DNA from: Candidatus Curtissbacteria bacterium RIFOXYA1_FULL_41_14
GTDB lineage: Bacteria; Patescibacteriota; Microgenomatia; Curtissbacterales; GWA2-41-24
Assembly: GCA_001775095.1 (NCBI GenBank)
Contig: MFCA01000029.1
Location: 153,173-217,172 of the forward strand
Direction: 5' to 3'
Length of the DNA: 64,000 bases
The position numbers and the translations under genes are program-made. Shown here in pieces: positions 1 to 55,869 of the stretch. The notes under the pieces are model-generated. The model worked only from the letters and a program-made list of their open reading frames with translations, was not told where the DNA came from and searched no databases. Numbering within the stretch: the stretch's first letter is position 1; every line of letters begins with the position of its first letter.

Positions 1-324
1 GAAATAAGTACCAATAACTATTAATACCCCAAATGTTGCCGTTGCGGTTCTTACAGCAAATACATTTAGTCCGAGTATTTTTACAAATAAAGCCGTGACA
101 TAAAATATTGCGGCATGCCTATAATCCTCGCCAACTCTGATGAAATCCGGTAAAAAATTACCAAACTCATCCCTCAGATTATTTGATAAAAAATAAGAAT
201 TAACACCTACTGTGACTTCATCAAAGAAAAAGCCCGCAGGTATTTGAGCAATTCTATAAAATCTTAAAAAGAAAGCTAAAAATACAATAGACAAAAAAAT
301 CAGGAAAGTTTGCTGAGTTTTCAT
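1..324 (-). CDS. Partial CDS (N-terminal ~108 aa, continues beyond window start) of another GT39/PMT-like membrane glycosyltransferase paralog
   Basis: Hand translation of minus strand from ATG at 324 is stop-free to position 1: MKTQQTFLIFLSIVFLAFFLRFYRIAQIPAGFFFDEVTVGVNSYFLSNNLRDEFGNFLP.... It shares the DE loop motif and TM pattern with the downstream paralogs. The ATGA start/stop overlap with 321..1925 matches the rest of the array. Confidence 0.5.
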   Translation of the reverse strand, partial: MKTQQTFLIFLSIVFLAFFLRFYRIAQIPAGFFFDEVTVGVNSYFLSNNLRDEFGNFLPDFIRVGEDYRHAAIFYVTALFVKILGLNVFAVRTATATFGVLIVIGTYF

Positions 325-1925
325 CTAGGGTGGCCGATTTTGATCGCCTCGGTACCATTTGGATAGTAAATCGTTTTAACTACTTCAAAGCCACCTGGAA
401 AATTTCCGACATCGGCAATGAAAAGTTCATTTGGATTTTCTGGTCTTTTAGCGTCAAAGTAATATTTGTCGAAATGGTATCTTGATCCTTCTTTCTGATA
501 AGTTTTAGGATCGTATTTTGTATTGAAAAGCCAAAAGACATAGGCTTGTTCTATGGAATGATCAATATTTATTTTTTCATATTGATTTTTAACCTTTTCT
601 GATTCAACAACAGCTTCCTTATAACCATATTGCCAAAAATCTGCTTTGTTAAATGGGTAGTGAGTAAAATAGTTGTGGATATAAAGGCCAACCGAAAGTA
701 TTATCCATCCAGTATAAGCACTAAGGAATATTTTTTTAAAGAAAAATTTGTTCGAAAAGATTTGAAAAAATGCATAGGCCGAAATAATCTCTAATGGAAT
801 TATCATAGGGAGAGACCGGTTGGCATGAGGATTTGGATGAGCAGGTATTGCGGCTAAAGGGCCAAGAAGAAGCCAAGCAAGAATGAAGGCCGATTCTTTA
901 TTTTTGTTTTTAACCAGAAAATAGATTCCAAATAAGAAAAGAGGTAGTTCGAAAAGATAAAGCATACCCATGCCTTCAATGTGATGTCTAAAATTGTCAT
1001 CACCTTTTGTAAATAAGAAGTTGAAATCAAAATGTGAAAGATAGTTACCAAACCACGTTTGGCCAATAACAAATCTCCTATTGTGGATATATTTCCCCAG
1101 TCTTAATCCTAAATCTTGGTCTTGTAAAATATATTTTATTGATTTTTCGGTATCTTCAAGTCTTGGTTTGCCTGTGGTAACTTCAAATCTTTGCAAGATA
1201 ACTTTAGGCGGAATCAATATTGCTAGCGGTAATCCAATCAGGATGGTGATGATAACAAAAACAGCTAGATATTTTTTAGAAACGGCCAGTATCTCTTTTC
1301 TATAAATAATGAAGGTTCCAGCAAAGAGTAGCGGGACGAATATTCTTTCAGAGTGATAGCTGTAAGCTGATATTCCAAGTAATATGGCACTTACAATTAG
1401 CCATTTTTTATCTTTAAGACTGTATAGAAAAGCGATGATTGATCCGACAGCAAAAAAAAGGCCGACAGTTGATTCGAAACCGATCCTTGAAACTTGCAGG
1501 TGCCAGGGAGAGATAGCCAACAGAAACATTGCGCAGAGCGCAATTGTTTGTGAATTTCCATTTACCATTTTCCATTTACTATTTTCAGTCTTATCAAAAA
1601 GTTTTTTGGCCAAAAAATATATTAATGGCACAGTGAGGAATCCGAAAAAAGCTGATGGAAGTCGAGCGGCAAAAGGGGTTAGTCCAAAAATTGCCACTGT
1701 GGGCACATCCAAATACATATAGAGAGGCGGTTTGTAGTCATCAAAGGAGCGATTGGTGATTGGTAAAAAGACTCCATATTCATCTCGGCCAGTTTTAAGA
1801 ATCGAGTAGGCATTGTAAGCATTACTGTTTTCGTCCCAATCGAGGCTTGGAGGAACAGTGCTTAATTTGTAAAACCTTAAAATAAAAGCTAAAACTAAAA
1901 TTGCCCAAAAGATTTTTTTTGTCAT
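321..1925 (-). CDS. GT-C fold membrane glycosyltransferase, GT39/PMT_2 (ArnT/PMT-like) family, paralog A1
   Basis: 534 aa. N-terminal TM, then the conserved loop 'DWDENSNAYNAYSILKTGRDEYGVFLP' (DE motif of PMT/ArnT-type polyprenol-phosphate-sugar dependent transferases), multiple TM helices and a soluble C-terminal domain. Four paralogs sit in tandem. Confidence 0.7.
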   Translation of the reverse strand: MTKKIFWAILVLAFILRFYKLSTVPPSLDWDENSNAYNAYSILKTGRDEYGVFLPITNRSFDDYKPPLYMYLDVPTVAIFGLTPFAARLPSAFFGFLTVPLIYFLAKKLFDKTENSKWKMVNGNSQTIALCAMFLLAISPWHLQVSRIGFESTVGLFFAVGSIIAFLYSLKDKKWLIVSAILLGISAYSYHSERIFVPLLFAGTFIIYRKEILAVSKKYLAVFVIITILIGLPLAILIPPKVILQRFEVTTGKPRLEDTEKSIKYILQDQDLGLRLGKYIHNRRFVIGQTWFGNYLSHFDFNFLFTKGDDNFRHHIEGMGMLYLFELPLFLFGIYFLVKNKNKESAFILAWLLLGPLAAIPAHPNPHANRSLPMIIPLEIISAYAFFQIFSNKFFFKKIFLSAYTGWIILSVGLYIHNYFTHYPFNKADFWQYGYKEAVVESEKVKNQYEKINIDHSIEQAYVFWLFNTKYDPKTYQKEGSRYHFDKYYFDAKRPENPNELFIADVGNFPGGFEVVKTIYYPNGTEAIKIGHPR

Positions 1926-3571
1926 GGTACTTTAACTTGGCTGACATCGTAAACTTCAAAAATTGTATCTCCTCTTAAATCGCTAATTACATGAATGGGT
2001 GCCTTTGGAAATTCAATCTCTTTTTGTCCAGTGACTATTAGGGTCTTTGTTGGCAGACGATCAATACCGGGGACTGACGACACAAAATCATATTTTCCGA
2101 TGCTATCAAAGACAACCCAATTATTTTCCTTATGCCTCGCGGCATTGGCTAAAAAGAAATTAGGGTCAACTTTTGCAAAATACAGATACTGCATATATTG
2201 ATGACCATAGTCGATTTTTCTTGAAATGACGAATTTATCGTACTCTTGTTCTTTTGAGGTAAGGTAGCTAAAAAGTTCTCTGTAGCCATATCTTTGATAA
2301 CGACTGGTAAAATATGGCTCCACCAGAAACAAATCAGATACAAATCCGATTGTAGAAACGATTACTATAATAGAAGCCAGAAGAATAAAGGCTTTTCTGG
2401 CAAAATTATTTCCTAGGTGAAGAAACGTTGCTACTAGTCCATAAGCTGCGATAATTTGGGGAACGGGCATGAAGAGGTTTATCCTGCCATAATTCCCAAT
2501 TCCCGCGATAGCTGCTCCCAATGGAAAGAAGACTATCCAGGGCAAAATAACTTTTAAACCGGGACTTTTGGCCTTAAAAAGAAAAATTAAACCAAGTATT
2601 GCCAATGGAAGCTCAAATAAATAAAGAACGCTCCGGGTCATAAAAGACTGAAATCCTGTTGGGGTTGCATTATTAAAATAAGTTTTGATCGATAAATTGC
2701 CGAAGTAGTTATTCAGATAAATCTTGGAAAATACGAGAACTTTATTGTAGCTAATTTGGCAAATGATATCGGGAAAACTCTTTCTGCATGCTCCTCTTTG
2801 TTCATTTATATCGTTATTAATTCCTACTCTGGCAATTCCAGCGACAAAACTTTCCTGTAAGAATCGAGATTGCCCTTTGAAGGTGAAAACGGTTGAAACA
2901 AGGGGTAAAAGCATAACAATACCAATGACTAGAGTTTTAACAATATAGAATTTAGGAAGCTTGAGGTTTGCACGATAGAAATATAAAAGGCTGGCAAGAA
3001 ATAAAGGGACAAAAGTCCAGGCAGATCGATAAATATAGAAAGAAAGCGCAAATCCTAAAAACGAAAAGAGGAAGAATTTTTTACTTCTTAAACCTACTAA
3101 GAAAAAATACGTTGAGATGGTTATAAAGAAAACTAACAAATCAGACTCAAAGGCATTTCTCGACGCCACTATGTGCCAAGGAGAAATTGCCAGAAAAAAA
3201 GCGGAAAAAAGTGCAATTCTTTTGTCAAAAAGTTCTTTGGAAAGTAAATAGCAAGCTATGACTGCCAAAACTCCAAACAAGGCAGATGGAAGCCGTGTTG
3301 CCAATTCATTGAGGCCAAAGAAAAATTGAGATACAGCTGTGAGGTAAAGATAAACTACAAGCTTCCAGTCTCCAAAACTCTCGAAAACCGGAAAGGGCAA
3401 AAATCTACCCCATTCATCCTTACCGGTTTTAAGAATAGAGTAAGCATTGTAGCCAAAAGCTGCTTCATCATCATTAAAGCCAATGGGAATGTTTGCAAGA
3501 TTTACAAAACGAAAGATAACTGCAATAACAATTATCGAAATTAAAGGCAGGTTATTTTTGAGATACTTCAT
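1922..3571 (-). CDS. GT39/PMT_2-like membrane glycosyltransferase, paralog A2
   Basis: 549 aa. 'FNDDEAAFGYNAYSILKTGKDEWGRFLPF' loop motif. 4-nt overlap with neighbours suggests translational coupling. Confidence 0.7.
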   Translation of the reverse strand: MKYLKNNLPLISIIVIAVIFRFVNLANIPIGFNDDEAAFGYNAYSILKTGKDEWGRFLPFPVFESFGDWKLVVYLYLTAVSQFFFGLNELATRLPSALFGVLAVIACYLLSKELFDKRIALFSAFFLAISPWHIVASRNAFESDLLVFFITISTYFFLVGLRSKKFFLFSFLGFALSFYIYRSAWTFVPLFLASLLYFYRANLKLPKFYIVKTLVIGIVMLLPLVSTVFTFKGQSRFLQESFVAGIARVGINNDINEQRGACRKSFPDIICQISYNKVLVFSKIYLNNYFGNLSIKTYFNNATPTGFQSFMTRSVLYLFELPLAILGLIFLFKAKSPGLKVILPWIVFFPLGAAIAGIGNYGRINLFMPVPQIIAAYGLVATFLHLGNNFARKAFILLASIIVIVSTIGFVSDLFLVEPYFTSRYQRYGYRELFSYLTSKEQEYDKFVISRKIDYGHQYMQYLYFAKVDPNFFLANAARHKENNWVVFDSIGKYDFVSSVPGIDRLPTKTLIVTGQKEIEFPKAPIHVISDLRGDTIFEVYDVSQVKVP

Positions 3572-5058
3572 TTAGAAACCACCTCATAAAACCTCATAAA
3601 ACTGTTACCTATCCCCTTTTGGTATTTGCCAATTAATTTAAGATGGGGATTACCTGGATCATCCGGAAGTTTCTGGTTTTCGTTGAAAATAAAAAATGTC
3701 TTTTTAACTTTGGCTGCGTCCAAGACTTGCTGTGGAATATCACTTACAGGCCAGAAACCATGTATCTCGATATTTTTTTCGCCGTAAAAGTAAATTAAAA
3801 GTGAATAAGGTAAAAGCCCAAAGGTACCTTCAGTCCCAACATAGACTGGCTGGCTTTTTGTTTCATGTTTTAGGATCGTCACAATTTCCTCTATACCATA
3901 ACCGGCTGGCCAGTCATTTAAATATTGACCAAGATCTGAATCGGCGATATTTGCCTTTGGAGGGTTTGTTAGCAATTTATACGAATTTATAGCTGGAAAA
4001 ATAAAAATGACTGCAAAAATCATCCACAAATATTTCGAGTAATTTTTCCACTTAATTAAATTTATGACACCAAAAGATACTAGGATAATGATATAAGGAA
4101 AATAAAAAAGCATAAAACGGGGGTATAGGACTTTATTAAAAATGCTTTCAGCCAGAAAGGGTGCCAAAACATAAACTGAAAGCAGAATAACTGGAAGATT
4201 TCGTTTAATTAAACCCCAGACAATAACCAAAATAGCAATTAAGGTCAGTGGCCAACCATTATATTGGACAAGCCATGAAATTAAGGCGTGAGGATTGCTG
4301 AGTAACTGGATAAATGGGTTATTTATAATTTCGCTCACGCTTCTAATAAATTCTGAGTTTTTGCGTGCAATCATGTAGAAAAGTGGGGATAGGCGCAAGG
4401 AGTTATAAATTACAAATGCCAATATTGCGGTAATTAAAGTCAAAAATAACCACCTTATAAATCTTTGAGACCTATTCTTTTTGCTAAAATCGAAAAGCAG
4501 TAAGGAGAATGGTAATAGATAAAGAAAGAAATTTGCGGATGATTTGGTAATCATACCAAGCCCAATGGCAAATCCGTTTAACAAGGCTGTATCAAGTTGT
4601 GGCGACTTTATCATTTTCGCGGAAAAGTAAACCGCCCAAATGCCTAACATGGTAAGCAATGAATCAAAAAGAGCCATCCGATCATAGAGAAGAGTGAAGG
4701 GCAAAATAATATAAAGCAAACAGGCCAGAATTGCTGTTTTTTTATCAAACAAGTATTTGGACAGGAAATAAATTCCGACTAGCGAGCCGAAACCGGCAAA
4801 AACTGAAACAAGTCTTGAGGCTACAAGTGGATCGGATATGAATTTCTGAAAAATCGCCGCAATCCAAATAAACAAAGGCTGTTTCCCATCCTCAAGAGAA
4901 CTAAATCTATTAGCAGGATCATGAAGTGCTACTTGAGCCCAATATGTATAAATAGCTTCATCAGTAAAAATTGGAATTATCTTTAGGTTTATTAGTCTGG
5001 TTATAAAATAGGTGCTAACCAAAACAAACCAAATTAAAAGCTGGAGTTTCGACTTCAT
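3568..5058 (-). CDS. GT-C membrane glycosyltransferase, ArnT/GT83-like variant of the GT39 family
   Basis: 496 aa. 'FTDEAIYTYWAQVALHDPANRF...DGKQPLFIW' resembles the ArnT DE...KPPL arrangement. 12 or more predicted TM segments. Confidence 0.55.
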   Translation of the reverse strand: MKSKLQLLIWFVLVSTYFITRLINLKIIPIFTDEAIYTYWAQVALHDPANRFSSLEDGKQPLFIWIAAIFQKFISDPLVASRLVSVFAGFGSLVGIYFLSKYLFDKKTAILACLLYIILPFTLLYDRMALFDSLLTMLGIWAVYFSAKMIKSPQLDTALLNGFAIGLGMITKSSANFFLYLLPFSLLLFDFSKKNRSQRFIRWLFLTLITAILAFVIYNSLRLSPLFYMIARKNSEFIRSVSEIINNPFIQLLSNPHALISWLVQYNGWPLTLIAILVIVWGLIKRNLPVILLSVYVLAPFLAESIFNKVLYPRFMLFYFPYIIILVSFGVINLIKWKNYSKYLWMIFAVIFIFPAINSYKLLTNPPKANIADSDLGQYLNDWPAGYGIEEIVTILKHETKSQPVYVGTEGTFGLLPYSLLIYFYGEKNIEIHGFWPVSDIPQQVLDAAKVKKTFFIFNENQKLPDDPGNPHLKLIGKYQKGIGNSFMRFYEVVSK

Positions 5059-6830
5059 AGAGTTTTCTCTCCAATATCAAAAACTGGTGATAGGGAAAGA
5101 TCATAAATAGTACGAAGTTTTTTGGCATCCTGGGGAAGTTGGCCTGATTGAACTACATACAAAGTCCTACCCACAACAGGAATTTGGCCGGGATTATCTG
5201 AGAATTTAAATTTATCAAAACCTTCAACATCGATGAAAAAGAACTGGTTTTTGGTGACTTGAGCACTTTGCCAATATTTTTTGGGGTCAAACTGCGTGTA
5301 CAAAAGGAAGTAAATATAAGGTCTCCCAAGAGCTTTGGTAACTATAATCTGGTCAACTTGATCATATAAAGGCTTGATATCCTGTACTGCTTGTTTATAA
5401 CCGTATTGCCAATCCCCCGAATAATTTATTGGCCAGTGGAGATAGTACATATGTAAATAGTACAGAAAGTTAAGAGTCAAAAGTCCCGCCGTCGCTAAAG
5501 CTATGGCGGACAAGAAAAAGGCAGGAGTAATTAGTAGTTTTTTATATCTGATCACTTGATAAAGACTATAGAGACCAATTGCAGAGAGTATCTGGTAAGT
5601 TGGCAGAATATGAATCATTCTTAGCGCATGAGGCGTTTCTCGTGCCGTCGCGGGTCCAAGAGGCGAAATAAGTAACCACCCAATAATTAAAAAGCGATAC
5701 TTTTGTTTAGTAGCAAACAAAAAGTAGATTCCTACAAGAATAAGCGCGAGATCTATATAATAAAGCTCTCCTGTATCTTGGACAGAGAGCCGCGGATTAA
5801 CATCACCTTTCGTAAAAAGAAAACGCGGATTGAACGCATCAAAATAATGAGTGAGATATTCATATGAATAGAAAAGGCGGCGATTATGAATAATATTTGA
5901 CCACCATGAAAAATTATCTTTTTGGCGATAATGAGTTGATTGATTTATAGGATCAAGATCTTTAAAAATTGTAACTTCATCGAATCGTAATCTGCCTTCG
6001 ATAGTTTGCGTGATAAAGACAAAAAGCGGCCAGAGCAGAAAGGCAGCAATCAAAGCTGTTGCCACGACAACTTTGGTTTGGGTAAGAATCTGTTTTCGAA
6101 ATTGGATCACCAGCACTATAAGTATGAAAGGAACAAACAAACGTTGCCCGGTAAAAGTATATATTCCGGCAAGAAATGAGAGCATCGATGGAAGAATCCA
6201 AATGGGGTGATCTTGGGCGAATTTTACAAAGAGGAAAATTCCTAAAACAGAGAAAAAGAGGCCTAGATTTGCTTCGAAAGCTCCCCGGGAAAACTGCAGG
6301 TGCCAAGGGGAGATTGCAAGGAAGAAAGCGGATAGAAGAGCAATAGCTTCTGGATTTCCAATTTCAAATTTCAAATTTCTAATTTCAAATGCAAGCAAGC
6401 CAGCTTGATTCACTCCCGGAGTGTGCCAGGGCTTAACTTTGCGCACTCCGGGAGTGTGCAAAGACTGCCACCCGCTACCATTCTCGAGAAGTTTTTTGGT
6501 TAGCGGATATGTCAGCAGGACAGTCAAGACCCCGAAAAATGCTGATGGAAACCTTATCGCAAATTCATTGAGGCCAAAGACGGCAATTGAGGGCACCGTT
6601 GCATAAATATATCCAGGAGGCTTGTAATCGCCAAAGGCCGCAAAATTTGTAAAAGGCAGAAATTTTCCATGTTCATCGCGAGCTGATTTTAAAATTGAAT
6701 AAGCGTTATAGCCAAGTGACGCTTCGTCCCAATAAAGAGAGGGTGGAACGGATGCAAGTTTATAAAATCTCAATACTGCGGCAATAAAAATGATAACAAC
6801 GAGTAAATAAAAATTTAAACTTCTTGGCAT
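5055..6830 (-). CDS. GT39/PMT_2-like membrane glycosyltransferase, paralog A4, carrying a ~45-aa repeat-derived loop insertion
   Basis: 591 aa. 'YWDEASLGYNAYSILKSARDEHGKFLPF'. Insertion 'GSGWQSLHTPGVRKVKPWHTPGVNQAGLLAFEIRNLKFEIGN' lies before the conserved 'EAIALLSAFFLAISPWH'. Confidence 0.7.
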   Translation of the reverse strand: MPRSLNFYLLVVIIFIAAVLRFYKLASVPPSLYWDEASLGYNAYSILKSARDEHGKFLPFTNFAAFGDYKPPGYIYATVPSIAVFGLNEFAIRFPSAFFGVLTVLLTYPLTKKLLENGSGWQSLHTPGVRKVKPWHTPGVNQAGLLAFEIRNLKFEIGNPEAIALLSAFFLAISPWHLQFSRGAFEANLGLFFSVLGIFLFVKFAQDHPIWILPSMLSFLAGIYTFTGQRLFVPFILIVLVIQFRKQILTQTKVVVATALIAAFLLWPLFVFITQTIEGRLRFDEVTIFKDLDPINQSTHYRQKDNFSWWSNIIHNRRLFYSYEYLTHYFDAFNPRFLFTKGDVNPRLSVQDTGELYYIDLALILVGIYFLFATKQKYRFLIIGWLLISPLGPATARETPHALRMIHILPTYQILSAIGLYSLYQVIRYKKLLITPAFFLSAIALATAGLLTLNFLYYLHMYYLHWPINYSGDWQYGYKQAVQDIKPLYDQVDQIIVTKALGRPYIYFLLYTQFDPKKYWQSAQVTKNQFFFIDVEGFDKFKFSDNPGQIPVVGRTLYVVQSGQLPQDAKKLRTIYDLSLSPVFDIGEKTL

Positions 6831-6867
6831 ATTGATCGAAAATACTAATTAATGATAACAAATTTAC

Positions 6868-7452
6868 TTAGTTAAAAAAGATTTCATCGCAAATTAATTT
6901 CATTTGCCAATCGAAAATAAAATAGCATAAGGATAAAAATGCCAAGAGGACAAAAACTATTTTTGCCAATTTTGTTTTTAAAAAAAAATCGATTCCCCAA
7001 AGAGAAAAGCTATACCAGAATATTGCTAAGAGAAAGAAAGAAATTTTAGAATTTAGCGTAGAAATTGCAATCAATGAGGTAGTCAAGATAACTGCGAAAT
7101 GGAATTTAGGTAAATATCTTCTCTTTTCAAATACTTTCAAAAAGGCAGCGGTTGCTAAAATTAAGCCCACCGGTCCTAAAATAACCATTAACAACTTGGG
7201 TTGAAAAGCGGAAGCAAAATTTTTAGAAAATTCAAAAATGCCAACAGTCGCTTTATTGTGGAAAAACCGGGAAATATTTCTATCCATACCGAAATCGGTA
7301 TTGACGTTTGACTCGACACTAACTTTTATAGAGAGAGGATTAAAGTAAAAACTTGAAAACTGTTTGCATCCAGTTGTCTGCCAAATTCTAAAACCAAAAA
7401 GGACAACTAAAATGATGATAAAAAATATCCTGAATTTATTTGAAGGTTTCAT
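6868..7452 (-). CDS. Small polytopic membrane protein, hypothetical
   Basis: 194 aa with about 5 hydrophobic segments. It sits between two GT39 paralogs in the same orientation. No recognisable motif. Confidence 0.4.
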   Translation of the reverse strand: MKPSNKFRIFFIIILVVLFGFRIWQTTGCKQFSSFYFNPLSIKVSVESNVNTDFGMDRNISRFFHNKATVGIFEFSKNFASAFQPKLLMVILGPVGLILATAAFLKVFEKRRYLPKFHFAVILTTSLIAISTLNSKISFFLLAIFWYSFSLWGIDFFLKTKLAKIVFVLLAFLSLCYFIFDWQMKLICDEIFFN

Positions 7453-9196
7453 TTAAATCCCACAAAGAATATATATGTCTGCCTGTCGAATCATTAGCTG
7501 CTGCTAACCATTTACCATCAACCTTCTCCCACGAGGGTGCAACATAAAGAATTCTTACCTGCCGCCTGTCGGCAGTCAGGATCTGATCATATATATTGAC
7601 ATCATCCGGAATAAAGACATATTTATCAAAATAATCCCTGTTTCCCCCAGAATTTATGAATTTCTCAGGATCATATTTCCCGTAAAAAAGCAGGTAAATA
7701 TAAGGAACCTGATTGATATTTGTTATATAGACTTTATCAAAATGATTCTGATATTTTTGCACTTGAGTCACCATTTCTCTATAACCATCTTGCCAGTCGG
7801 CAGCGAATTTTTTAGGATAATGCACGAATAAAAGGTGCAAGTATGTCAAAAATGTATAGAAAATAACAAAAGTTAATAGCACTTTAATTATCAATAATTT
7901 TTTGTTTGAAAAGATCCAGTATGCTCCAAGCGCTGAGAAAAAGGCTAGAGGTACAGACATCTGTAAAGTTCTATAAGCATGAGGCGTCGGGTTGACAATC
8001 ATTGCCGGAATTGGCGCTAAAATCAGCCAGGATAACATAATTTTAAGAGATTTTCCGCTCAGCTTTTTTAGAGCGAAAATGGAACAGACCAATAAAATCC
8101 CATCAAACAGATAAATCTGGCCCATGTCGACCTGTGAGTGTCTACCTATCTGATCGCCTTTATAAAAAAGGAAGACGGGAGAAAAGTGGTCGATGTAATT
8201 ATTAAATGCCAGATAAACATTGTATAGGGAAAAAGACCAGTATTTAGACAGAAAGCGTAAAGGTGGCTTAGAATTTTGATCATAAAAAATTCTGGCTGAC
8301 TCGTATGTATCTTGACTAAAGGCTGACTGAGAACTTGCCCTTGATTGACCTTCTGGTGAAAATGTAAAAATTATAATCGGTAAAGCCAATGTTAATGCTA
8401 AAAGTACAGGTAGTACGAATTTTGTGACTATTTTTTTGACAGCCTTAAAATGAATTAGGAGAAGTACGATCACGAACAGAGGTGTGAAAATGCGATAAGC
8501 ATGATAAAAATACATAGATAAAGTAAAGAGCAAGAAGGCCAAAGTTAAAGTTATGACTTGCTTTCTCTCGATTCCCTTAAGAAACAGATAGAGACCAAAC
8601 GTCAAGAAGAAAAGGCCTGTGGTTGATTCAAATCCACCTCTGGAAAATTGAATGTGCCAAGGGGAGATGGCCAAAAAGAAGGCGGACAAAAGAGCAATTG
8701 GTTCGCTTTTGACAACTGACCACTGACCCTTCGGTGGACTCAGGGTCATCTCTTCGACCCTAAGCCCTTTGGGTCTGAGCTCTTCGAGTCCGAGTCTCAG
8801 AGTCGAGGACCTCACGGTCGAAGACTCGTCGAATGGATGACCACTGACATTTGACTTTTCGAAAAGTTTTTTGGTCAAAAGATAAATTAATGGCACAGTG
8901 AGGAATCCGAAGAAAGCTGATGGAAAACGAACGGCAAATTCATTGAGGCCAAAAATCGCAATAGAAGGAACCAGCAGATAGTGATAACCTGGCAATTTCC
9001 AATCACCGAAACTTTCAAAGAATAGTGGCAGAGTTACTCCGTGATGGTCCTTGCCCGTCTTGAGAATCGAATAAGCGTCATAACCAAACACTGCTTCATC
9101 CCAATAAAGTCCGGGCGGATTTATCCCGAGTTGATAAAATCTAAGGATGAAGGCTAGCAAAATAATAAGTACAAGCAGAGTTTTTCTAAGGTTCAT
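7436..9196 (-). CDS. GT39/PMT_2-like membrane glycosyltransferase, paralog A5, with ~55-aa GC-rich loop insertion
   Basis: 586 aa. 'YWDEAVFGYDAYSILKTGKDHHGVTLPLF'. Insertion 'NVSGHPFDESSTVRSSTLRLGLEELRPKGLRVEEMTLSPPKGQWSVVKSEP' lies at the same loop position as in 5055..6830. Confidence 0.7.
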   Translation of the reverse strand: MNLRKTLLVLIILLAFILRFYQLGINPPGLYWDEAVFGYDAYSILKTGKDHHGVTLPLFFESFGDWKLPGYHYLLVPSIAIFGLNEFAVRFPSAFFGFLTVPLIYLLTKKLFEKSNVSGHPFDESSTVRSSTLRLGLEELRPKGLRVEEMTLSPPKGQWSVVKSEPIALLSAFFLAISPWHIQFSRGGFESTTGLFFLTFGLYLFLKGIERKQVITLTLAFLLFTLSMYFYHAYRIFTPLFVIVLLLIHFKAVKKIVTKFVLPVLLALTLALPIIIFTFSPEGQSRASSQSAFSQDTYESARIFYDQNSKPPLRFLSKYWSFSLYNVYLAFNNYIDHFSPVFLFYKGDQIGRHSQVDMGQIYLFDGILLVCSIFALKKLSGKSLKIMLSWLILAPIPAMIVNPTPHAYRTLQMSVPLAFFSALGAYWIFSNKKLLIIKVLLTFVIFYTFLTYLHLLFVHYPKKFAADWQDGYREMVTQVQKYQNHFDKVYITNINQVPYIYLLFYGKYDPEKFINSGGNRDYFDKYVFIPDDVNIYDQILTADRRQVRILYVAPSWEKVDGKWLAAANDSTGRHIYSLWDLNETFK

Positions 9197-13715: not shown

Positions 13716-14494
13716 CTTGAGGTTTTCGTTCGAAATAGAACACTTTTTACTATTCCCAATTCGTGTAAAAGATAGATAAATACTGTCCAGAGAGTTAAAA
13801 GACCGTATTTGGTTGAACGTGTGAGATTGATTGATGATGCTTCGGGGAAATATTTGCAGGGAACTGGAATTTCGGAGATATTAAATCCGAAAGACAGGGT
13901 AGAGATCAAAATCTGCTGGTCAAAAATAAAATCATCAGAAAATTTGTGGTAAGGAATGTTTGCTAAAACTTGGCGTGAATACGCACGGAAGCCGGTGTGA
14001 TACTCGGAAAGATTCAATCCCATTGCCAGATTTTCGACCAATGTTAAAAATCGATTGGCAAAGTATTTCCATAAAGGCATACCACCTGCCAAAACTTGAC
14101 TGCGGGTTTGAATCCGTGAACCGAGCATTATATCCGCCCGGCTGTTAACAATCGGTTCGCATAATACTCCAACAAGTTTGGCATCATATTGGTAGTCCGG
14201 ATGAACCATAACAACAACGTCTGGCTTTCTTTTTAAAGCTTGATCATAACAGGTTTTTTGATTAGCGCCGTAACCTTTATTCCTTTTATGAATATAGACT
14301 GTGATACCAATTTTTTTCGCTTTCTGGACAGTCTCATCACTGGAGGCATCATCGACCAGAATTACTTCAGAAATTAAATCTTTGGGCAAATCATCAACAG
14401 TTTTTTTAATAGTCTTTTCGGCATTGTAAGCCGGCATAACGACAATTATTTTGGGACTTTTATTCGGATTCCAAAGGATATTATGGTTTTGCAA
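13703..14494 (-). CDS. GT2 family glycosyltransferase
   Basis: 'VVMPAYNAEKTIKKTVDDL...ILVDDASSDET' GT-A N-terminal signature. TTG start in the ORF track. Confidence 0.7.
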   Translation of the reverse strand: MQNHNILWNPNKSPKIIVVMPAYNAEKTIKKTVDDLPKDLISEVILVDDASSDETVQKAKKIGITVYIHKRNKGYGANQKTCYDQALKRKPDVVVMVHPDYQYDAKLVGVLCEPIVNSRADIMLGSRIQTRSQVLAGGMPLWKYFANRFLTLVENLAMGLNLSEYHTGFRAYSRQVLANIPYHKFSDDFIFDQQILISTLSFGFNISEIPVPCKYFPEASSINLTRSTKYGLLTLWTVFIYLLHELGIVKSVLFRTKTSSYLK

Positions 14495-15401
14495 ATTTGT
14501 TTAGAACCTCCCTGTCGGACAATTGACAATTGACAATTGACAGCTGACAACTGACAACTAAGCTGGGAATCTGGGATAAAGCCCAGAGGAAGCCGATGAA
14601 GAAGGCCAAATCAAGAGTAGCTAGCGCTTTGACGAGATGATAAGGGAACCACGCTAGATGCTGGATAAGCCAAAGCAGGTCAGAAATATTTTTCCAGACA
14701 AAGAGAAATTGGTTTTTGTAGGAAACAGTTCTGATATAAAAATCCGATTTTGATTTTTTAATTGTGCCTTCCTGATGAAAGTGGTTTACTTTGGAATTTG
14801 GCTCAAATAGACACAAATACCCTTTTTTCCAAGCTTTGAATGAAAGATCGATGTCTTCCCAATAGAATGGAGCAAATATTTCATCAAACCCGCCGAGCTC
14901 TAAAAACTTTTCTTTGTCAAAAAGTCCGGACCCCCCAGAAACCCAGAGAGTCTCGCCAGATTCTGCCACCAGTGCAAAGTGTTCAAGGAAACCCTTTTTG
15001 AAGACTCCGCCTCCCCTTCCTCTTACCACAATTTTCCCTTTCTCGTGACTGTAATCTGCAAGACCAATGGCAAAAACTTTATCGTGAGCGAAGAGAGAAA
15101 GAGCTGGTTTCAAAAAGTCCGCTCGCGGCGCAACATCGGAATTTAGAAGTAGAACCAAATTGCCATCGGCTGCTTTTATTCCCGCATTCGCGGCATAAGC
15201 GAATCCCTTATTTTTAGGAAGTTGAATTAATTTTATCTTTTTAAAATTTTTATTGATAAAATTCACCGAATCATCTGCAGAAGCATCGTCAACGACAATT
15301 ATTTGACAATTGGGGCAATGTTTTATGACACTTGGCAAATTTTTTGCCAACAAATCACAACCATTGAAATTTGGAATAATTACTGATATTTTTTGTGCCA
15401 T
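14481..15401 (-). CDS. GT2 family glycosyltransferase with heptamer-repeat-encoded C-terminal tail
   Basis: 'ISVIIPNFNGCDLL...IIVVDDASADDS'. The C-terminal 'VVSCQLSIVNCQLSD' is encoded by the (ACAATTG)n repeat at 14518-14559. Confidence 0.7.
   Translation of the reverse strand: MAQKISVIIPNFNGCDLLAKNLPSVIKHCPNCQIIVVDDASADDSVNFINKNFKKIKLIQLPKNKGFAYAANAGIKAADGNLVLLLNSDVAPRADFLKPALSLFAHDKVFAIGLADYSHEKGKIVVRGRGGGVFKKGFLEHFALVAESGETLWVSGGSGLFDKEKFLELGGFDEIFAPFYWEDIDLSFKAWKKGYLCLFEPNSKVNHFHQEGTIKKSKSDFYIRTVSYKNQFLFVWKNISDLLWLIQHLAWFPYHLVKALATLDLAFFIGFLWALSQIPSLVVSCQLSIVNCQLSDREVLNKFAKP
14518..14559. repeat. Heptanucleotide tandem repeat (ACAATTG/ACAGCTG/ACAACTG) x6 inside the 3' end of a GT2 gene
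   Basis: gacaattgacaattgacaattgacagctgacaactgacaac. Confidence 0.8.
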
Positions 15402-17860
15402 AAATAAAGTGAAAAAAATATTGTTATAATAATGCCTACTATCGAAAGATAAAGACCATTATAGAATGATTGTGGCCTGAATTTAAATTCGGCTTCATGC
15501 TCTCCTCTGGGTATTAGAACGGACTGAAACATGTAGTTTATTCTTTTAATCTCATCTTTTTGGCCATCGATATAAACCTGCCAGCCGGGATAAAAAACGT
15601 TAGAGATAACAAGAGGGGCTTCGTCATCTGTTTTTGTTCTGAGTGTTAGCGACTGATCAGAGTACTTTATAAAGTTAACTGAGGCTTCGATTCTTTGCTT
15701 TGGGAATCCAAAATCCGACGAGACTGCAGTTGATCTAATATCAAAATGAGGGTCTAAAAGTTGTTCTAACTCTTGGTTTTGATCCCCAACTCTAATCACT
15801 TCTTTCACGAAAAACGCACGGGGTAGAGCATTGTCATTTCTAAAAATTTTAGTCTCCCCTTCTTGGAAGACTTTTTCAAAACCGGGCTCGGAAAGTTCGT
15901 CAAAAGTTGCTATGTAGCGCACATTCAGAAAATCGGCAATTTTTGAGAAGTACTTTTGGGGTGTTACTATTCTGTTAAAAGATCCGGCTTGGGTTACTTT
16001 TTGAGATTCCCAGGCAGTTACCAGCATTGCGTAATCTTTAAGATAAAGTGGATCATAACCATTAACAGCTTCAATCTGATAAACACTCGGTGTATTGCCA
16101 TTAAAGATTCTTCTGTCGGTGGTCATTATTCTAAAAGGTTTTTCCTGACTTGATAAGTATTTTGTAGTCTGTGTTTGAGGAAAAATCCAGGAAAGTTTTG
16201 AAAAAGGAGTGAACTTATAGCCGAATCTGAACAGTTCAAATAGCGTTAAGGCAAAAATCGCCAAAAGTAAAATAGTTTTTGGAATTTTGGCGATTTTTAA
16301 AATTATAAGTGCAAGCATTGAGAAAGAGATTAGTATTGGAAATATTAAATTTCTCAGGGCAACTTTAAATGAGTCAATATTTCCAGTAATAGGGAAAACA
16401 TCTTTAAAGATTAATGTGTAGGCTGCAAGAACAAATAGAACTGATAGAATTAAAACTGCCGGGATAATATGTTTCTTTTCGCGTTTCTTTTCGATAAAGT
16501 AATTTACTCCATAAGCGGACAAAACCGAAAGCGAGAATATAAAAAGAAATAGGATTCTTGAGGGTTGCATTGAAGAAATTAGAGGGAAATTAAAGATGTA
16601 GGGAATTTTTGAAATTGGATTTGCGATCGCAAAAACCAAGGAAAAAATTGCCAAAAATATAAAATAGATCGCCCTTTTTTCTCTTGACAAAAGTGCGAAG
16701 ATTACAAAAGCAAGAGGAACGATGCCGACAAAGCTGACGAATTCAGCCCAGTTCCAGATTCCCCAATAATTATAAGTTGCGGGATTACCAAAAAAATCCG
16801 GAGCCACAAGTTGAATCAAATTCTGAACTGGCAGAAACCAGTCAGTTCTTCCCGTAAAATACCCTTGATCAATTTCTCTTGCAGACAATCTGACAAACTC
16901 TAATGCCGGTAAAAGCTGAACCGCAGATATTAGAATACCTAAGGCCAATCCGCAAACTATAATCGTTAAGATTTCCAGCTTTTTTGATTGAAAAGTTTGA
17001 AAAATGACATAGAAGAACGTTGCGATAAACACGTAAAAGGCGGTCTGCCAATGACCTGACAGGATAGTTTGAGAGGCTGCAACTACTAAAACAATAAACC
17101 ACAGCGGGGATTGCCGAGTGAATAACTTATATTCGCTCGCAGAATGCCCTGTACTCTTGGTCCACGGATGAATGCTGGAGCGAATAGATACTTTCGAGGT
17201 ATATTCTGCTCGCTCATGTAAACTTTTAGGACAATATCGAGAGCTTTCAGCTCTCGAAAGTTTATTGACCGCAAGAAGAATTAAGGGAAGCCACATGGCA
17301 CAAGTAACGATAGTTCCCCAGGTCATCCAAGCAATAAAAAATCCGGTGAAGGGTAAAACAAGGGCTCCAAACATAGAGGCCATAATTGAAAGTTGCAGGC
17401 CTGTCTTGCCGGCAGGCAGGCTTCTCAAAAACAGGAACATAAAAAGTCCCGTTAATATCACAGGTAAAATTATTGCCAGCGTCCAAGCTATGTTAAACGG
17501 AAAGATGAAAAAGAGAAAATTAAATAACTGAAATGGCGATGACTGAATATTTGCTAAAAGTGGCTGACCCGAGAAACTATAAGGATTCCATAGAGGCAAA
17601 TTTCCTTCCTTTATATCATTCACTGCCAAATATCGCCATGGATATGTTTGCAAGACTGGATCAGTAATCAGAGGATTTTTAACCGGAAATTTACCCGCAT
17701 TGAAACCATCATATGTTTGGTCCCTCCAGGGATGATAGAGTCCCAAAAGGTCATCGGCACCAATTGGAACTTTTCCCATTAATAAATTTGGCAGGAAAAA
17801 AAGAAATACTATGATACAAATAACTATTGCACCAAAAGTATTAGAAGATAATTTTTTCAT
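15380..17860 (-). CDS. YfhO-like large polytopic membrane protein (putative GT-C glycosyltransferase), paralog Y1
   Basis: 826 aa. N-terminal 'LWNPYSFSGQPLLANIQSSPF' block shared with 37097..39529. Size and topology match YfhO-family proteins. This is family assignment by resemblance only. Confidence 0.5.
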   Translation of the reverse strand: MKKLSSNTFGAIVICIIVFLFFLPNLLMGKVPIGADDLLGLYHPWRDQTYDGFNAGKFPVKNPLITDPVLQTYPWRYLAVNDIKEGNLPLWNPYSFSGQPLLANIQSSPFQLFNFLFFIFPFNIAWTLAIILPVILTGLFMFLFLRSLPAGKTGLQLSIMASMFGALVLPFTGFFIAWMTWGTIVTCAMWLPLILLAVNKLSRAESSRYCPKSLHERAEYTSKVSIRSSIHPWTKSTGHSASEYKLFTRQSPLWFIVLVVAASQTILSGHWQTAFYVFIATFFYVIFQTFQSKKLEILTIIVCGLALGILISAVQLLPALEFVRLSAREIDQGYFTGRTDWFLPVQNLIQLVAPDFFGNPATYNYWGIWNWAEFVSFVGIVPLAFVIFALLSREKRAIYFIFLAIFSLVFAIANPISKIPYIFNFPLISSMQPSRILFLFIFSLSVLSAYGVNYFIEKKREKKHIIPAVLILSVLFVLAAYTLIFKDVFPITGNIDSFKVALRNLIFPILISFSMLALIILKIAKIPKTILLLAIFALTLFELFRFGYKFTPFSKLSWIFPQTQTTKYLSSQEKPFRIMTTDRRIFNGNTPSVYQIEAVNGYDPLYLKDYAMLVTAWESQKVTQAGSFNRIVTPQKYFSKIADFLNVRYIATFDELSEPGFEKVFQEGETKIFRNDNALPRAFFVKEVIRVGDQNQELEQLLDPHFDIRSTAVSSDFGFPKQRIEASVNFIKYSDQSLTLRTKTDDEAPLVISNVFYPGWQVYIDGQKDEIKRINYMFQSVLIPRGEHEAEFKFRPQSFYNGLYLSIVGIIITIFFSLYLWHKKYQ

Positions 17861-32986: not shown

Positions 32987-33030
32987 TGATTCCTTTCTGT
33001 GTACCGGGCGCGTTTTTTATGGGAAAGAAT

Positions 33031-33060
33031 CAAAAAACCTCTCCAGAAACTTGGAGAGGC
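33031..33060 (-). terminator. Intrinsic terminator (minus strand) about 190 nt downstream of the dehydrogenase gene
   Basis: Minus-strand RNA ggccucuccaaguuucuggagagguuuuuug: 8-bp GC-containing stem plus U6. Confidence 0.55.
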
Positions 33061-55729: not shown

Positions 55730-55869
55730 GAAAATTTACAATTTACAATTTTTAATTTTTATTGAATTTTCAATAATTTAATTTTCAAAATTGATAAGAA
55801 AATATTTTAGAAAAATATTTTGAAACATTTAGATTTCATTTCAAATTGAAAATTTCAAATTTCAAATTA
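55730..55869. repeat. AT-rich spacer built from AATTTAC/AATTTCA heptamers and their inverse
   Basis: gaaaatttacaatttacaattttt...tcaaattgaaaatttcaaatttcaaatt. Confidence 0.7.

What the first reader, a model, noticed from the sequence alone, without database searches (positions are those of the whole stretch)
6350..6490. Repeat-derived in-frame insertion in a GT39 paralog loop (copy 1): heptamer repeats plus two REP-like palindromes translated as HTPGV repeats
Relative to paralog 321..1925 (loop 'DKTENSKWKMVNGNSQTIALCAMFLLAISPWH'), ORF 5055..6830 carries about 45 extra residues immediately before the conserved 'EAIALLSAFFLAISPWH'. The inserted DNA contains (AATTTCA)x5 at 6355-6392, the same heptamer family found in intergenic spacers. 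It also contains two near-identical palindromes, cactcccggagtg (6412-6424) and cactccgggagtg (6445-6457). Their architecture (CAC-YCC-N-GGR-GTG) mirrors the RAYT-associated REP cacccctggggtg. The segment is GC-rich against an AT-rich gene. It looks like a non-coding repeat/REP-type element exapted into coding sequence at a tolerant loop.
Basis: seen in the sequence. Interest (0 to 1): 0.65.

Follow-up and report, generated by a model that had tools for sequence, protein, structure and literature searches.

The report
Palindrome-and-heptamer repeat insert in glycosyltransferase loop
A membrane glycosyltransferase gene of a Curtissbacteria (CPR) bacterium carries a 129-base in-frame insert made of two kinds of normally intergenic repeat DNA, which looks like tolerated selfish DNA in a floppy loop, as in Rickettsia, rather than a new function.

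Summary
ORF 5055..6830(-) is a GT39/GT-C glycosyltransferase of Candidatus Curtissbacteria. It carries a 129-nt, 43-codon insert at 6351-6479, between TM2 and TM3. Ninety of 112 close homologs have only about 4 residues there.

The insert has two parts:
- **A 46-bp doublet of 13-bp palindromes** (6411-6456). The two are exact reverse complements, 33 nt apart.
- **Five heptamers** (6353-6387).

The same doublet is intergenic in another Curtissbacteria genome. Its palindromes flank RAYT-like transposase genes in two metagenomic contigs. It occurs in at least 113 metagenomic contigs. In low-GC contigs, 15 of 33 copies lie in-frame inside real genes such as UvrD, transketolase, ArgRS and UppS. One copy sits in the same loop of a Beckwithbacteria GT39 gene, in a different reading frame.

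Heptamer arrays are a genome-wide feature: 8 in the window against 0 expected. The two heptamer units whose TGA would be in-frame are exactly the two that are mutated, so selection keeps the ORF open.

Positional orthologs carry unrelated hairpin inserts at the same loop. AlphaFold2 gives pLDDT of about 50 there.

No copy-number polymorphism, promoter, terminator or Rfam match was found.

Verdict: a lineage-specific, tolerated, Rickettsia-RPE-like insertion. It is a new member of a known kind, and the loop is a notable hotspot.

The parts
5055..6830 (-). Host gene: a 591-aa GT39 / GT-C-fold (ArnT/PMT-like) membrane glycosyltransferase. It is one of four homologous GT39 paralogs at 321-9196; a fifth, more distant PMT_2 gene lies at 3568..5058.
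   Evidence: Pfam PMT and PMT_2 hits. 100% identical to OGE13668.1 of Candidatus Curtissbacteria RIFOXYB12_FULL_40_6. AF2 mean pLDDT is 89.8. Foldseek matches STT3, AglB, PglB and ArnT 5EZM.
6351..6479 (-). The in-frame insert: 129 nt, 43 codons (GSGWQSLHTPGVRKVKPWHTPGVNQAGLLAFEIRNLKFEIGNP). It lies between 'KKLLEN' at the end of TM2 and 'EAIALLSAFFLAISPWH' at the start of TM3.
   Evidence: Ninety of 112 anchored homologs have a 42-aa RFPSA..SPWH segment, against 85 aa here. The insert is open only in the gene frame and in one antisense frame. pLDDT is 48-57.
6411..6456 (.). 46-bp REPIN-like doublet. It consists of palindrome CACTCCCGGAGTG (6411-6423), a 20-nt spacer tgccagggcttaactttgcg, and palindrome CACTCCGGGAGTG (6444-6456). 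On the gene strand it is translated as HTPGV...HTPGV.
   Evidence: the two palindromes pair as a 13-bp stem. The same doublet, with modal 33-nt spacing and similar spacers, occurs in at least 113 metagenomic contigs. It is also in L022 (intergenic) and L058.
6353..6387 (-). Heptamer microsatellite of five units on the gene strand: TGAAATT, AGAAATT, TGAAATT, TGAAATT, GGAAATC. TRF places it at 6354-6390 as ATTTCAA x5.3.
   Evidence: Units 2 and 5 start at codon position 1, and they are exactly the two in which the T of TGA is replaced. Units 1, 3 and 4 are out of frame and keep TGA.
6391..6410 (-). Linker (NQAGLLA). In the predicted RNA fold it pairs with 6457-6479 as an outer stem around the doublet.
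   Evidence: RNA fold of -50 kcal/mol, z = -2.9.
6457..6479 (-). N-terminal flank of the insert (GSGWQSL). It contains GGGTGGCAGTC (6463-6473, gene strand), which also starts the unrelated inserts of ortholog P0013 and of the L116 9224 paralog.
   Evidence: DNA alignment and loop DNA listing.
57706..58371 (+). Context: a RAYT-like Y1 transposase ORF flanked by the resident REP CACCCCTGGGGTG (57654, 58395). Intergenic REP doublets lie at 55101-55147 and 61342-61388.
   Evidence: Pfam Y1_Tnp, E = 2.2e-8. Palindrome positions and context.
55838..55868 (.). Context: an intergenic array of the same heptamer (ATTTCAA/AATTTCA). It has the same orientation relative to the flanking minus-strand genes as the array in the insert.
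8696..8875 (-). Context: the same loop of paralog 7436..9196. It carries an unrelated GC-rich hairpin core inside a GTCAGTG heptamer array. The core is bounded by an 11-nt direct repeat, TGACCACTGAC (8717, 8838).
   Evidence: RNA fold z = -4.1. The matching empty site 'EKSNVSGQLSVVKSE' is in L116 11317-11382.
1554..1586 (-). Context: the same loop of paralog 321..1925 holds a heptamer array (ATTTACC, translated as KWKMVNGN).

Best explanation
The segment is a lineage-specific, in-frame insertion of two kinds of normally non-coding repeat DNA. It lies in the short loop that links TM2 and TM3 of a GT-C-fold (GT39) glycosyltransferase. By inference, this is the first cytoplasmic loop.

**Part 1: the palindrome doublet.** This is a 46-bp doublet of 13-bp palindromes in inverted orientation. 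Structurally it is a REPIN-like element of a REP family that elsewhere flanks RAYT (Y1/IS200-like) transposase genes. It most likely arrived by the transposition or recombination process that spreads such doublets. That step is inferred.

**Part 2: the heptamer array.** This is an AT-rich heptamer microsatellite of the type that fills intergenic spacers in this genome. It most likely arose by slippage. That step is also inferred.

**Why the gene still works.**
- The insert length is a multiple of three.
- The palindromes contain no stop codon in any frame.
- The two heptamer units whose TGA fell in frame have lost the T.
- The loop is distant from the periplasmic active site and is predicted to be disordered.

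The extra 43 residues are therefore translated and simply looped out. No benefit needs to be assumed. This is selfish or neutral DNA filtered by purifying selection, as with Rickettsia palindromic elements.

The loop is a recurrent sink for such DNA. Paralogs and orthologs carry other heptamer arrays and unrelated hairpin elements at the same codon position.
For: **Shown directly**
- Baseline loop. Ninety of 112 homologs have the minimal loop 'KKLFENE-IALL'. The insert is confined to the >=90%-identity cluster and is identical in the five cluster members that were read and span the loop.
- Orthologs. The positional orthologs L115-L118 have the same gene neighbours. Each carries a different hairpin-forming insert at the same site.
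- Doublet family, intergenic and RAYT-linked copies. The exact palindromes with a 21-nt spacer are intergenic in Curtissbacteria L022. Its palindromes flank RAYT homologs in L188 and L222.
- Doublet family, abundance. It occurs in at least 113 metagenomic contigs, with modal spacing of 33 nt as here.
- In-frame copies. Fifteen of 33 non-redundant low-GC copies are internal to ORFs of at least 200 aa. Pfam domains span the insert in UvrD, MgsA, ArgRS, GT1 and UppS.
- DNA-level conservation. The same doublet sits in the same loop of a Beckwithbacteria GT39 gene but in another reading frame (HSRS..HSGG against HTPGV..HTPGV). The nearest homologs of that gene lack it. Conservation is therefore at the DNA level, and the two events are independent.
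- Heptamers. Eight period-7 arrays occur in the window against 0 expected. There are 44 in 286 kb of low-GC loci, against 1-9 for periods 5, 6, 8 and 9.
- Stop avoidance. The in-frame TGA units are exactly the mutated ones.
- Structure. pLDDT is 48-57 across residues 121-150, within a model of mean 89.8. The fold is GT-C.
- Hotspot. This loop is the only indel block longer than 10 residues, apart from the directly adjacent 21-column block.
- Filled and empty sites. For the neighbouring paralog, window 8696-8875 is the filled site and L116 11317-11382 is the empty site.

**Established knowledge**
- In-frame palindromic elements are known in Rickettsia (PMC10969869, citing Ogata 2000).
- GT-C enzymes have N-in topology, with the catalytic D/E in the first external loop.
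Against: - No empty site exists for this particular gene. The nearest relatives are only about 70% identical, so the insertion boundaries and any target duplication cannot be defined.
- The window holds only these two copies of CACTCCSGGAGTG.
- The window's RAYT is flanked by a different palindrome, CACCCCTGGGGTG. A local source and an active mobilising enzyme for this variant are therefore not demonstrated.
- Translation of the insert is inferred from the open frame, not observed.
- Orthologs and paralogs have repeatedly acquired different inserts at exactly this loop. That could mean more than passive tolerance, such as a DNA-level target or a benefit of a long variable loop.
- The taxonomy of the low-GC metagenomic contigs was not established.
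Confidence: 0.7

Rival explanations
1. Targeted hotspot. The loop-coding DNA is a preferred integration or slippage site, so inserts accumulate here through mechanism rather than through tolerance alone. The K-K-L-F-E codons form short palindromes such as CTTTTCGAAAAG and TTCTCGAGAA.
For: - Three of four homologous paralogs in the window carry inserts at this exact position. So do about 20 of 112 close homologs, all four positional orthologs examined, and a Beckwithbacteria homolog.
- No other position in the protein has indels longer than 10 aa.
- Perfect 10-12-bp palindromes lie directly upstream of the inserts at 6482-6491 and 8857-8868 (read).
Against: - The inserted sequences belong to at least five unrelated classes. 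One integration mechanism is unlikely to produce that.
- In metagenomes, the same doublet sits in-frame in many unrelated genes. None of the characterised in-ORF low-GC copies is in a GT39 loop.
- The palindromic flank follows trivially from Lys/Phe/Glu/Leu codon complementarity.
- These genomes carry several GT39 paralogs each (five PMT_2-type genes in this window, seven in L116), which multiplies the opportunities.
Confidence: 0.13
2. Phase-variation switch. The heptamer tract (unit length not divisible by 3) changes copy number by slipped-strand mispairing. This switches individual GT39 paralogs on and off and varies surface glycans, as heptanucleotide repeats do in E. coli K1 neuO.
For: - Non-triplet tandem repeats lie in the 5' third of several envelope-glycosylation genes in one cluster. 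These are the loops of three GT39 paralogs, two arrays in ORF 27078..28811, and one in the GT2 ORF 14481..15401.
- The array at 27822-27855 is 100% perfect.
- A close strain variant, P0142, has a different array at that place.
Against: - The array is short and interrupted, with two of five units altered.
- The cluster members read that span the loop carry an identical insert; the commonest full-length member alone is on 61 contigs.
- L232 and L233 have the same copy number as the window. The split gene in L232 is caused by a nonsense point mutation 30 nt upstream, not by slippage.
- The frameshifted member P0123 breaks elsewhere, around residue 440.
Confidence: 0.06
3. Functional exaptation. 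The extended loop peptide, or the mRNA hairpin it encodes, now serves a purpose. Examples would be a cytoplasmic interaction surface, a translational pause aiding membrane insertion, or mRNA stabilisation.
For: - The insert folds better than shuffles: -50 kcal/mol, z = -2.9.
- The ORF has been kept open by specific substitutions.
- The insert is invariant across the cluster.
Against: - Orthologous inserts share neither sequence nor peptide.
- The same doublet is read in different frames in different genes.
- pLDDT is about 50.
- No promoter-like or terminator-like site falls in the insert, and there is no Rfam match. The best hit has E = 0.19 and 17.9 bits against an 80-bit threshold.
- Invariance within a >=90% cluster carries little information.
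Confidence: 0.08
4. The segment is not an insertion. It is an ancestral long loop lost in other lineages, or an assembly artefact.
For: No empty site is available for this gene at high identity.
Against: - The minimal loop is the overwhelming state across 5,235 homologs sampled at the top 120.
- The DNA consists of two recognisable repeat families that are also found intergenically.
- The same protein sequence is recovered from dozens of independent contigs and assemblies.
Confidence: 0.02

Closest known systems
[quoted passage not shown] 2000, as summarised in PMC10969869)
   Same: - Short palindromic, hairpin-forming repeat DNA inserted in-frame into unrelated, conserved genes.
- Stop-free and translated as extra loop residues, without destroying the host protein.
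- Here the doublet family sits in UvrD, MgsA, transketolase, ArgRS, UppS, GT1 and GT39.
   Different: - The organisms differ: CPR/Microgenomates rather than Rickettsia.
- The element is much shorter (46 bp against about 100-150 bp).
- There is no conserved encoded peptide, because different frames are used.
- The structure is a REP doublet linked to RAYT-type transposases, not an RPE family.
- This insert is a composite with a heptamer microsatellite.
REP / REPIN elements mobilised by RAYT (Y1, IS200-like) transposases (Bertels & Rainey 2011, PMC3116915; PMC3337134)
   Same: - Two short palindromes in inverted orientation, separated by a short spacer, able to form one long hairpin.
- The identical palindromes flank RAYT homologs in L188 and L222.
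- The window has its own RAYT with REP-flanked ends and intergenic doublets of the same geometry.
   Different: - Classical REPs and REPINs are by definition extragenic. Here the copy is inside an ORF, as are about half of the low-GC copies sampled.
- The insert's palindrome (CACTCC-S-GGAGTG) is not the one flanking the window's RAYT (CACCCC-W-GGGGTG).
- Copy number in the source genome is unknown.
Intragenic heptanucleotide VNTR of E. coli K1 neuO and the 7-bp repeats of Haemophilus hmw. These are phase-variable contingency loci (papers listed: PMC13001214, PMC8262952, PMC2651432; what they say about the repeats is from my own knowledge, as I did not read them)
   Same: Tandem 7-nt units inside, or next to, genes that modify surface glycans. 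The frame is kept only for certain copy numbers.
   Different: The tract here is degenerate, with stop-removing substitutions. It shows no copy-number variation in any sampled contig.
ArnT / PMT / PglB-type GT-C glycosyltransferases (CAZy GT39/GT83; PDB 5EZM, 3RCE)
   Same: The host protein has PMT and PMT_2 Pfam hits, a D-E motif after TM1, and a GT-C fold.
   Different: No solved structure is detectable by sequence alone. The substrate is unknown. The TM2-TM3 loop is 43 residues longer than in its own family.

Membership tests
REP / REPIN (RAYT-associated repetitive extragenic palindromes) | Short palindrome able to form a hairpin, with two copies in inverted orientation and a short spacer (the REPIN geometry) | tested here: met
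   The 13-bp palindromes at 6411 and 6444 are exact reverse complements, 33 nt apart. The inverted repeat is 16 nt at 94%. They pair in the minimum-free-energy fold.
REP / REPIN (RAYT-associated repetitive extragenic palindromes) | Many copies per genome, predominantly extragenic | tested here: inconclusive
   Only 2 copies occur in this 64-kb window, both inside the ORF, and the whole source genome is not available. An intergenic copy exists in sister genome L022. At least 113 metagenomic contigs hold the doublet, but 15-21 of 33 low-GC copies are intragenic.
REP / REPIN (RAYT-associated repetitive extragenic palindromes) | A RAYT (Y1 transposase) gene flanked by the same palindrome | tested here: inconclusive
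   The window's Y1_Tnp ORF 57706..58371 is flanked by CACCCCTGGGGTG, a different variant. RAYT homologs flanked by CACTCCSGGAGTG occur only in the high-GC contigs L188 and L222.
Rickettsia palindromic elements (RPE) | Palindromic repeat inserted in-frame in protein-coding genes, stop-free, with copies in unrelated genes | tested here: met
   This is met for behaviour only.
Rickettsia palindromic elements (RPE) | Sequence homology to RPE-1..10, and a conserved encoded peptide | tested here: not met
   The doublet is read in different frames in different hosts (HTPGV, HSRS/HSGS), so there is no conserved peptide. Homology to RPE sequences was not tested and is not expected. The insert works like an RPE but is not a member of that family.
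Phase-variable simple-sequence-repeat contingency locus | Tandem repeat with a unit not divisible by 3, inside the ORF | tested here: met
   Period 7, 5.3 copies, 6354-6390.
Phase-variable simple-sequence-repeat contingency locus | Copy-number polymorphism between strains or reads, producing on and off alleles | tested here: not met
   The insert is identical in every cluster member read that spans the loop. The other in-ORF array is identical in L232 and L233. Read-level data are not available.
MITE (miniature inverted-repeat transposable element) | Terminal inverted repeats plus a target-site duplication at the insert boundaries | tested here: inconclusive
   No direct repeat abuts the 6351/6479 boundaries. 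Only an 8-nt AGCGGATA pair lies about 20 nt outside them, which is probably chance. The outer stem relies on G-U pairs. By contrast, the neighbouring paralog's insert has an 11-nt flanking direct repeat and 15-nt inverted repeats.
GT39 / GT-C glycosyltransferase (host protein) | PMT/PMT_2 domain, acidic motif in the first external loop, multi-TM GT-C fold | tested here: met
   Pfam PF02366 and PF13231. Invariant D35 and E36. Foldseek matches STT3, AglB, PglB and ArnT with probability 1.00.
Known structured RNA (Rfam) | Match to a covariance model at the gathering score | tested here: not met
   No hit at gathering score in the window. In 6250-6600 the best hit has E = 0.19 and 17.9 bits against an 80-bit threshold.

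The most novel reading that the evidence does not exclude
CPR (Microgenomates) genomes may host a REPIN-like 46-bp palindrome doublet family, plus further hairpin elements and heptamer microsatellites. A large fraction of their copies would reside in-frame inside conserved housekeeping and envelope genes. That would be a phylum-scale analogue of the Rickettsia 'selfish DNA in coding genes' phenomenon, and I found no description of it for CPR. The TM2-TM3 loop of the multi-copy GT39 glycosyltransferases would act as a preferred, possibly targeted, landing pad. It would turn over so fast that every orthologous lineage carries a different insert.
Probability: 0.3. Interest if true: 0.65.

Novelty: new member of a known kind. 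Interest (0 to 1): 0.42.

Why it matters
The insert is a clean example of how non-coding repeat DNA becomes protein sequence in a streamlined genome with very little intergenic space. The stop-free palindromes, the 3n length and the two stop-removing substitutions show purifying selection fitting junk DNA into an essential-looking membrane enzyme.

There are practical consequences for annotation:
- Peptides such as HTPGV..HTPGV, HSRS..HSGS, NFQFSIFNFQ or SNVSGQLSVV in CPR proteins are translated repeats, not domains.
- They can mislead homology searches, clustering and structure prediction.

The sampling here suggests that about half of such doublets in low-GC contigs are intragenic. If that generalises, REP-type elements in CPR behave unlike the classical 'extragenic' definition. 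They could then serve as strain-level markers and as a source of loop-length variation in envelope enzymes.

Tried and rejected
1. **16-mer genome scan.** Scanning genome contigs with the 16-mer CACTCCSGGAGTGTGC gave mostly chance hits in unrelated high-GC genomes. Only L022 and L058 were informative.
2. **Phase variation.** I looked for length variants in the 90% clusters and fetched DNA for the short members.
   - P0123 is frameshifted elsewhere.
   - P0124 starts well downstream of the insert; I did not fetch its contig.
   - P0138 (L232) results from a nonsense point mutation.
   - L233 and L234 contain scaffold gaps.
   - No heptamer copy-number change was found.
3. **Composite mobile unit.** I tested whether the heptamer array and the doublet travel together. 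No heptamer array lies within 150 nt of a doublet in the other low-GC loci.
4. **Regulatory element or structured RNA.** There is no promoter-like or terminator-like site in the insert and no Rfam family.
5. **Sequence search of the PDB.** No hit. The fold search was needed instead.
6. **Common origin with the P0013 / L116-9224 insert.** Only the first 13-14 nt (AGCGGGTGGCAGT) and a weak stretch are shared. This is too little to claim homology.
7. **Literature on CPR.** Searches for in-frame REP or MITE insertions, or for heptamer repeats, in CPR/Patescibacteria found nothing relevant.
8. **Target-site duplication.** No convincing duplication is present at the insert boundaries.
Full report
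**1. The observation**

ORF 5055..6830 on the minus strand encodes a 591-aa protein. It has Pfam PMT and PMT_2 hits. It is 100% identical to OGE13668.1 of Candidatus Curtissbacteria bacterium RIFOXYB12_FULL_40_6, a Microgenomates/CPR bacterium.

- CACTCCCGGAGTG lies at 6411-6423 and CACTCCGGGAGTG at 6444-6456. These are the only two matches in the window, against 0.00 expected.
- A period-7 array lies at 6354-6390, with 5.3 copies at 90% matches.

The two palindromes are exact reverse complements, 33 nt start-to-start. They form a 16-nt, 94% complementary inverted repeat. The GC-rich half (6395-6479) is 0.60 GC and the heptamer half is 0.23. The rest of the gene is 0.39.

**2. It is an insertion, and it is lineage-specific**

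Among the 120 best homologs, 112 could be anchored on RFPSA...SPWH. In 90 of them that segment is 42 aa, with a loop of about four residues ('KKLFENE-IALL'). In the window protein it is 85 aa. The insert is therefore 43 codons, at 6351-6479.

The five members of the >=90%-identity cluster that were read and span the loop carry the identical insert; the commonest full-length member alone is on 61 contigs. The next homologs, at 69-71% identity, have no insert or a different one.

Its 'KWKMVNGN' is a heptamer array at 1554-1586.

**3. The palindrome doublet belongs to a REP/REPIN-like family**

The window contains a Y1_Tnp (RAYT-like) ORF at 57706..58371, flanked by CACCCCTGGGGTG at 57654 and 58395. 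Intergenic doublets of that palindrome lie at 55101 and 61342, with 34-nt spacing. The insert's doublet has the same geometry. It differs by a compensatory C/G to T/A pair and by the central base.

A scan of representative genomes with a 16-mer gave mostly chance hits, with two exceptions:
- In Curtissbacteria RIFCSPLOWO2_01_FULL_38_11b (L022), the exact pair CACTCCCGGAGTG-21 nt-CACTCCGGGAGTG lies in an intergenic spacer about 30 nt downstream of a stop codon.
- In Beckwithbacteria GW2011_GWC1_49_16 (L058), a near-identical doublet lies inside a 535-aa GT39 homolog, at the same TM2-TM3 loop ('VRELF-HSRSVPQAQHHSGGV-LAALLFALNPW'). There the palindrome is read in a different frame (HSRS/HSGG rather than HTPGV). 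The nearest homologs, at 60-61% identity, have the minimal loop. The two GT39 insertions are therefore independent, and what is conserved is DNA, not peptide.

After removing redundancy:
- 33 copies are in low-GC (<0.52) contigs.
- The modal spacing is 33 nt (14 of 33), as in the window.
- Several spacers resemble the window's, for example agccagggaaaaacttcgcg against tgccagggcttaactttgcg.
- 15 of the 33 are internal to ORFs of at least 200 aa, 6 lie near an ORF end, and 12 look intergenic.

Pfam confirms the hosts are real genes. They include UvrD helicase, MgsA/RarA, transketolase, ArgRS, a GT1 glycosyltransferase, UppS, a P-type ATPase, a Mur ligase, Fic and YfhO. In five of them (UvrD, MgsA, ArgRS, GT1 and UppS) a domain match spans the insert.

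RAYT homologs flanked by exactly this palindrome occur in the high-GC contigs L188 and L222.

**4. The heptamer array**

Period-7 arrays are a specific property of this genome. There are 8 in the window against 0.0 in Markov simulations, and none of period 5 or 8-12. They are also common in the other low-GC loci: 44 in 286 kb, against 1-9 for periods 5, 6, 8 and 9.

Most lie in intergenic spacers (49282, 51546-51675, 55733-55868). One spacer holds the same unit in the same orientation as the insert.

Several are in-frame inside envelope genes:
- the loops of three GT39 paralogs;
- two arrays in ORF 27078..28811;
- one near the C-terminus of the GT2 ORF 14481..15401.

On the gene strand the five units are TGAAATT, AGAAATT, TGAAATT, TGAAATT and GGAAATC. 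Units 2 and 5 begin at codon position 1. They are exactly the units in which the T of TGA has been replaced. The three out-of-frame units keep TGA. This is the signature of a non-coding repeat kept open by selection on the reading frame.

Heptamer arrays are not found next to the doublet in other low-GC loci. The two parts of the insert are therefore separate repeat classes.

**5. The loop is a hotspot and is structurally permissive**

The positional orthologs L115-L118 share the window's gene order, with an upstream ORF of 145-207 aa and a roughly 500-aa PMT_2 gene downstream. Each has a different hairpin-forming insert at the same loop:
- P0003 and P0005 have inverted arms of 9-bp GTAC repeats.
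- P0053 has a roughly 130-bp element with GCTTTGGGT...ACCCAAAGC ends.
- P0013 has an element shared with the L116 9224 paralog.

Paralog 7436..9196 has a GC-rich core inside a GTCAGTG heptamer array. The core is bounded by an 11-nt direct repeat, and its RNA fold has z = -4.1. L116 11317-11382 ('EKSNVSGQLSVVKSE') is the matching empty site.

In a 59-sequence alignment, this loop is the only block with indels longer than 10 residues. It appears as two directly adjacent rare-column blocks at query positions 118-161.

AlphaFold2 gives a mean pLDDT of 89.8. The 10-residue blocks covering residues 121-150 score only 48-57, between helices 89-116 and 160-172. Foldseek places the model in the GT-C fold, matching STT3, AglB, PglB and ArnT 5EZM.

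The loop is most likely the first cytoplasmic loop, away from the active site. This is inferred from three things: the established N-in topology of that fold, the invariant D35-E36 in the first external loop, and the Lys-Lys at the end of TM2. It was not tested directly.

**6. Rivals**

- *Phase variation.* This is attractive because of the non-triplet repeats in glycan genes, but no copy-number variant was found. The split gene in L232 results from a nonsense point mutation, and P0123 is frameshifted elsewhere.
- *Regulatory or RNA element.* The insert has no promoter-like or terminator-like site and no Rfam match. It does fold better than shuffles, with z = -2.9, as expected for a palindrome doublet.
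- *Targeted integration.* This is not excluded. The diversity of inserted sequences argues for tolerance plus many paralogous targets. So does the wide range of host genes for the doublet.

**7. Comparison with known systems**

The insert behaves like the Rickettsia palindromic elements (in-frame, stop-free, in unrelated genes). It is built like a REPIN. It is not a member of the RPE families.

Its membership in an active REPIN/RAYT system in this genome is unproven, for two reasons:
- The local RAYT is flanked by a different palindrome.
- Genome-wide copy number is unknown.

I found no paper describing in-frame REP-type insertions or heptamer microsatellites in CPR bacteria.

**8. Verdict**

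The insert is a new member of a known kind: tolerated selfish or repeat DNA translated within a permissive loop. Interest is moderate. The single insert is ordinary, but two aspects may merit a systematic survey:
- the recurrent turnover at this loop;
- the high intragenic fraction of the doublet family in low-GC contigs.

Noticed in passing
window 8696-8875 (ORF 7436..9196, minus strand): The same loop of this paralog carries a different, roughly 110-nt GC-rich hairpin core (RNA fold z = -4.1). It sits inside a GTCAGTG heptamer array and is bounded by an 11-nt direct repeat, TGACCACTGAC (8717, 8838), with 15-nt inverted repeats. L116 11317-11382 looks like the empty site. A related hairpin (GACCCTTCG...CTCAGGGTC) is intergenic in L022 at about 7133-7157.
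   Followed up: partly
L234 about 2400-2500: A strain variant of the 7436..9196 insert diverges in its right half and contains a scaffold gap. The gene is called as two ORFs there. The cause could be strain-level variation or an assembly problem within the repeat.
   Followed up: partly
window 27822-27855 and 28144-28175 (ORF 27078..28811, minus strand): Two in-frame heptamer arrays lie in another large membrane protein: AAAATTG x4.9 (100% perfect, translated 'EIFNFQFSIFNFF') and ACAGTAG x4.6. A >=90%-identity variant, P0142, has a different array ('KFTVHSSQFTV') at the first site. In L232 the gene is split by a nonsense point mutation.
   Followed up: partly
window 14518-14561 (C-terminal end of GT2 ORF 14481..15401): A heptamer array, GACAATT x6.3, is translated as 'VVSCQLSIVNCQLS' in the last 30 codons. 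The ORF may have been extended through a former spacer.
   Followed up: no
window 57654-58407, 55101-55147, 61342-61388: A RAYT-like Y1 transposase ORF (57706..58371) is flanked by CACCCCTGGGGTG. Two intergenic doublets of about 47 bp (with similar flanks) use the same palindrome. This looks like a small resident REPIN/RAYT system in a CPR genome.
   Followed up: partly
L121-L231 (metagenome contigs): The CACTCCSGGAGTG doublet occurs in-frame inside housekeeping genes of low-GC contigs, including UvrD, MgsA, transketolase, ArgRS, UppS, a P-type ATPase, a Mur ligase, GT1, Fic and YfhO. The UppS copy (L175) encodes HSRSVPQAQHHSGSV. The Beckwithbacteria GT39 copy differs at one residue (HSRSVPQAQHHSGGV). 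The doublet is also abundant in high-GC (0.6-0.7) contigs.
   Followed up: partly
L116 6331-6456 and L117 6331-6465: The orthologous loops hold an insert built from four or so 9-bp GTAC-containing repeats, followed by their inverted complement ('KYHKYEKYERYEK...TSRTSGTSRTFSTS'). This is a hairpin made of tandem repeats.
   Followed up: no
window 32987-33247: A GC-rich, strongly folding intergenic stretch of about 200 nt lies between two minus-strand genes. It has no Rfam match at gathering score and contains a cccttcgac...gaagg motif like the hairpin elements.
   Followed up: no
window 52625-52722: A near-perfect tandem duplication of a 47-bp unit (2.1 copies, 98% matches, TRF score 189) spans the short gap between ORFs 51651..52628 and 52719..54020.
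   Followed up: no
window 17095-17260 (ORF 15380..17860, minus strand): A polar stretch ('SRAESSRYCPKSLHERAEYTSKVSIRSSIHPWTKSTGHSASEYK') interrupts an otherwise hydrophobic membrane protein. The DNA has a 19-nt, 74% inverted repeat. It may be another in-frame hairpin insert.
   Followed up: no
window 49274-49366, 51541-51675, 55724-55869: The intergenic spacers are almost entirely made of AT-rich heptamer arrays with differing units (AATTTCT, AAATTCG, AATTTAC, ATTTCAA). The origin and role of this period-7 bias are unexplained.
   Followed up: partly
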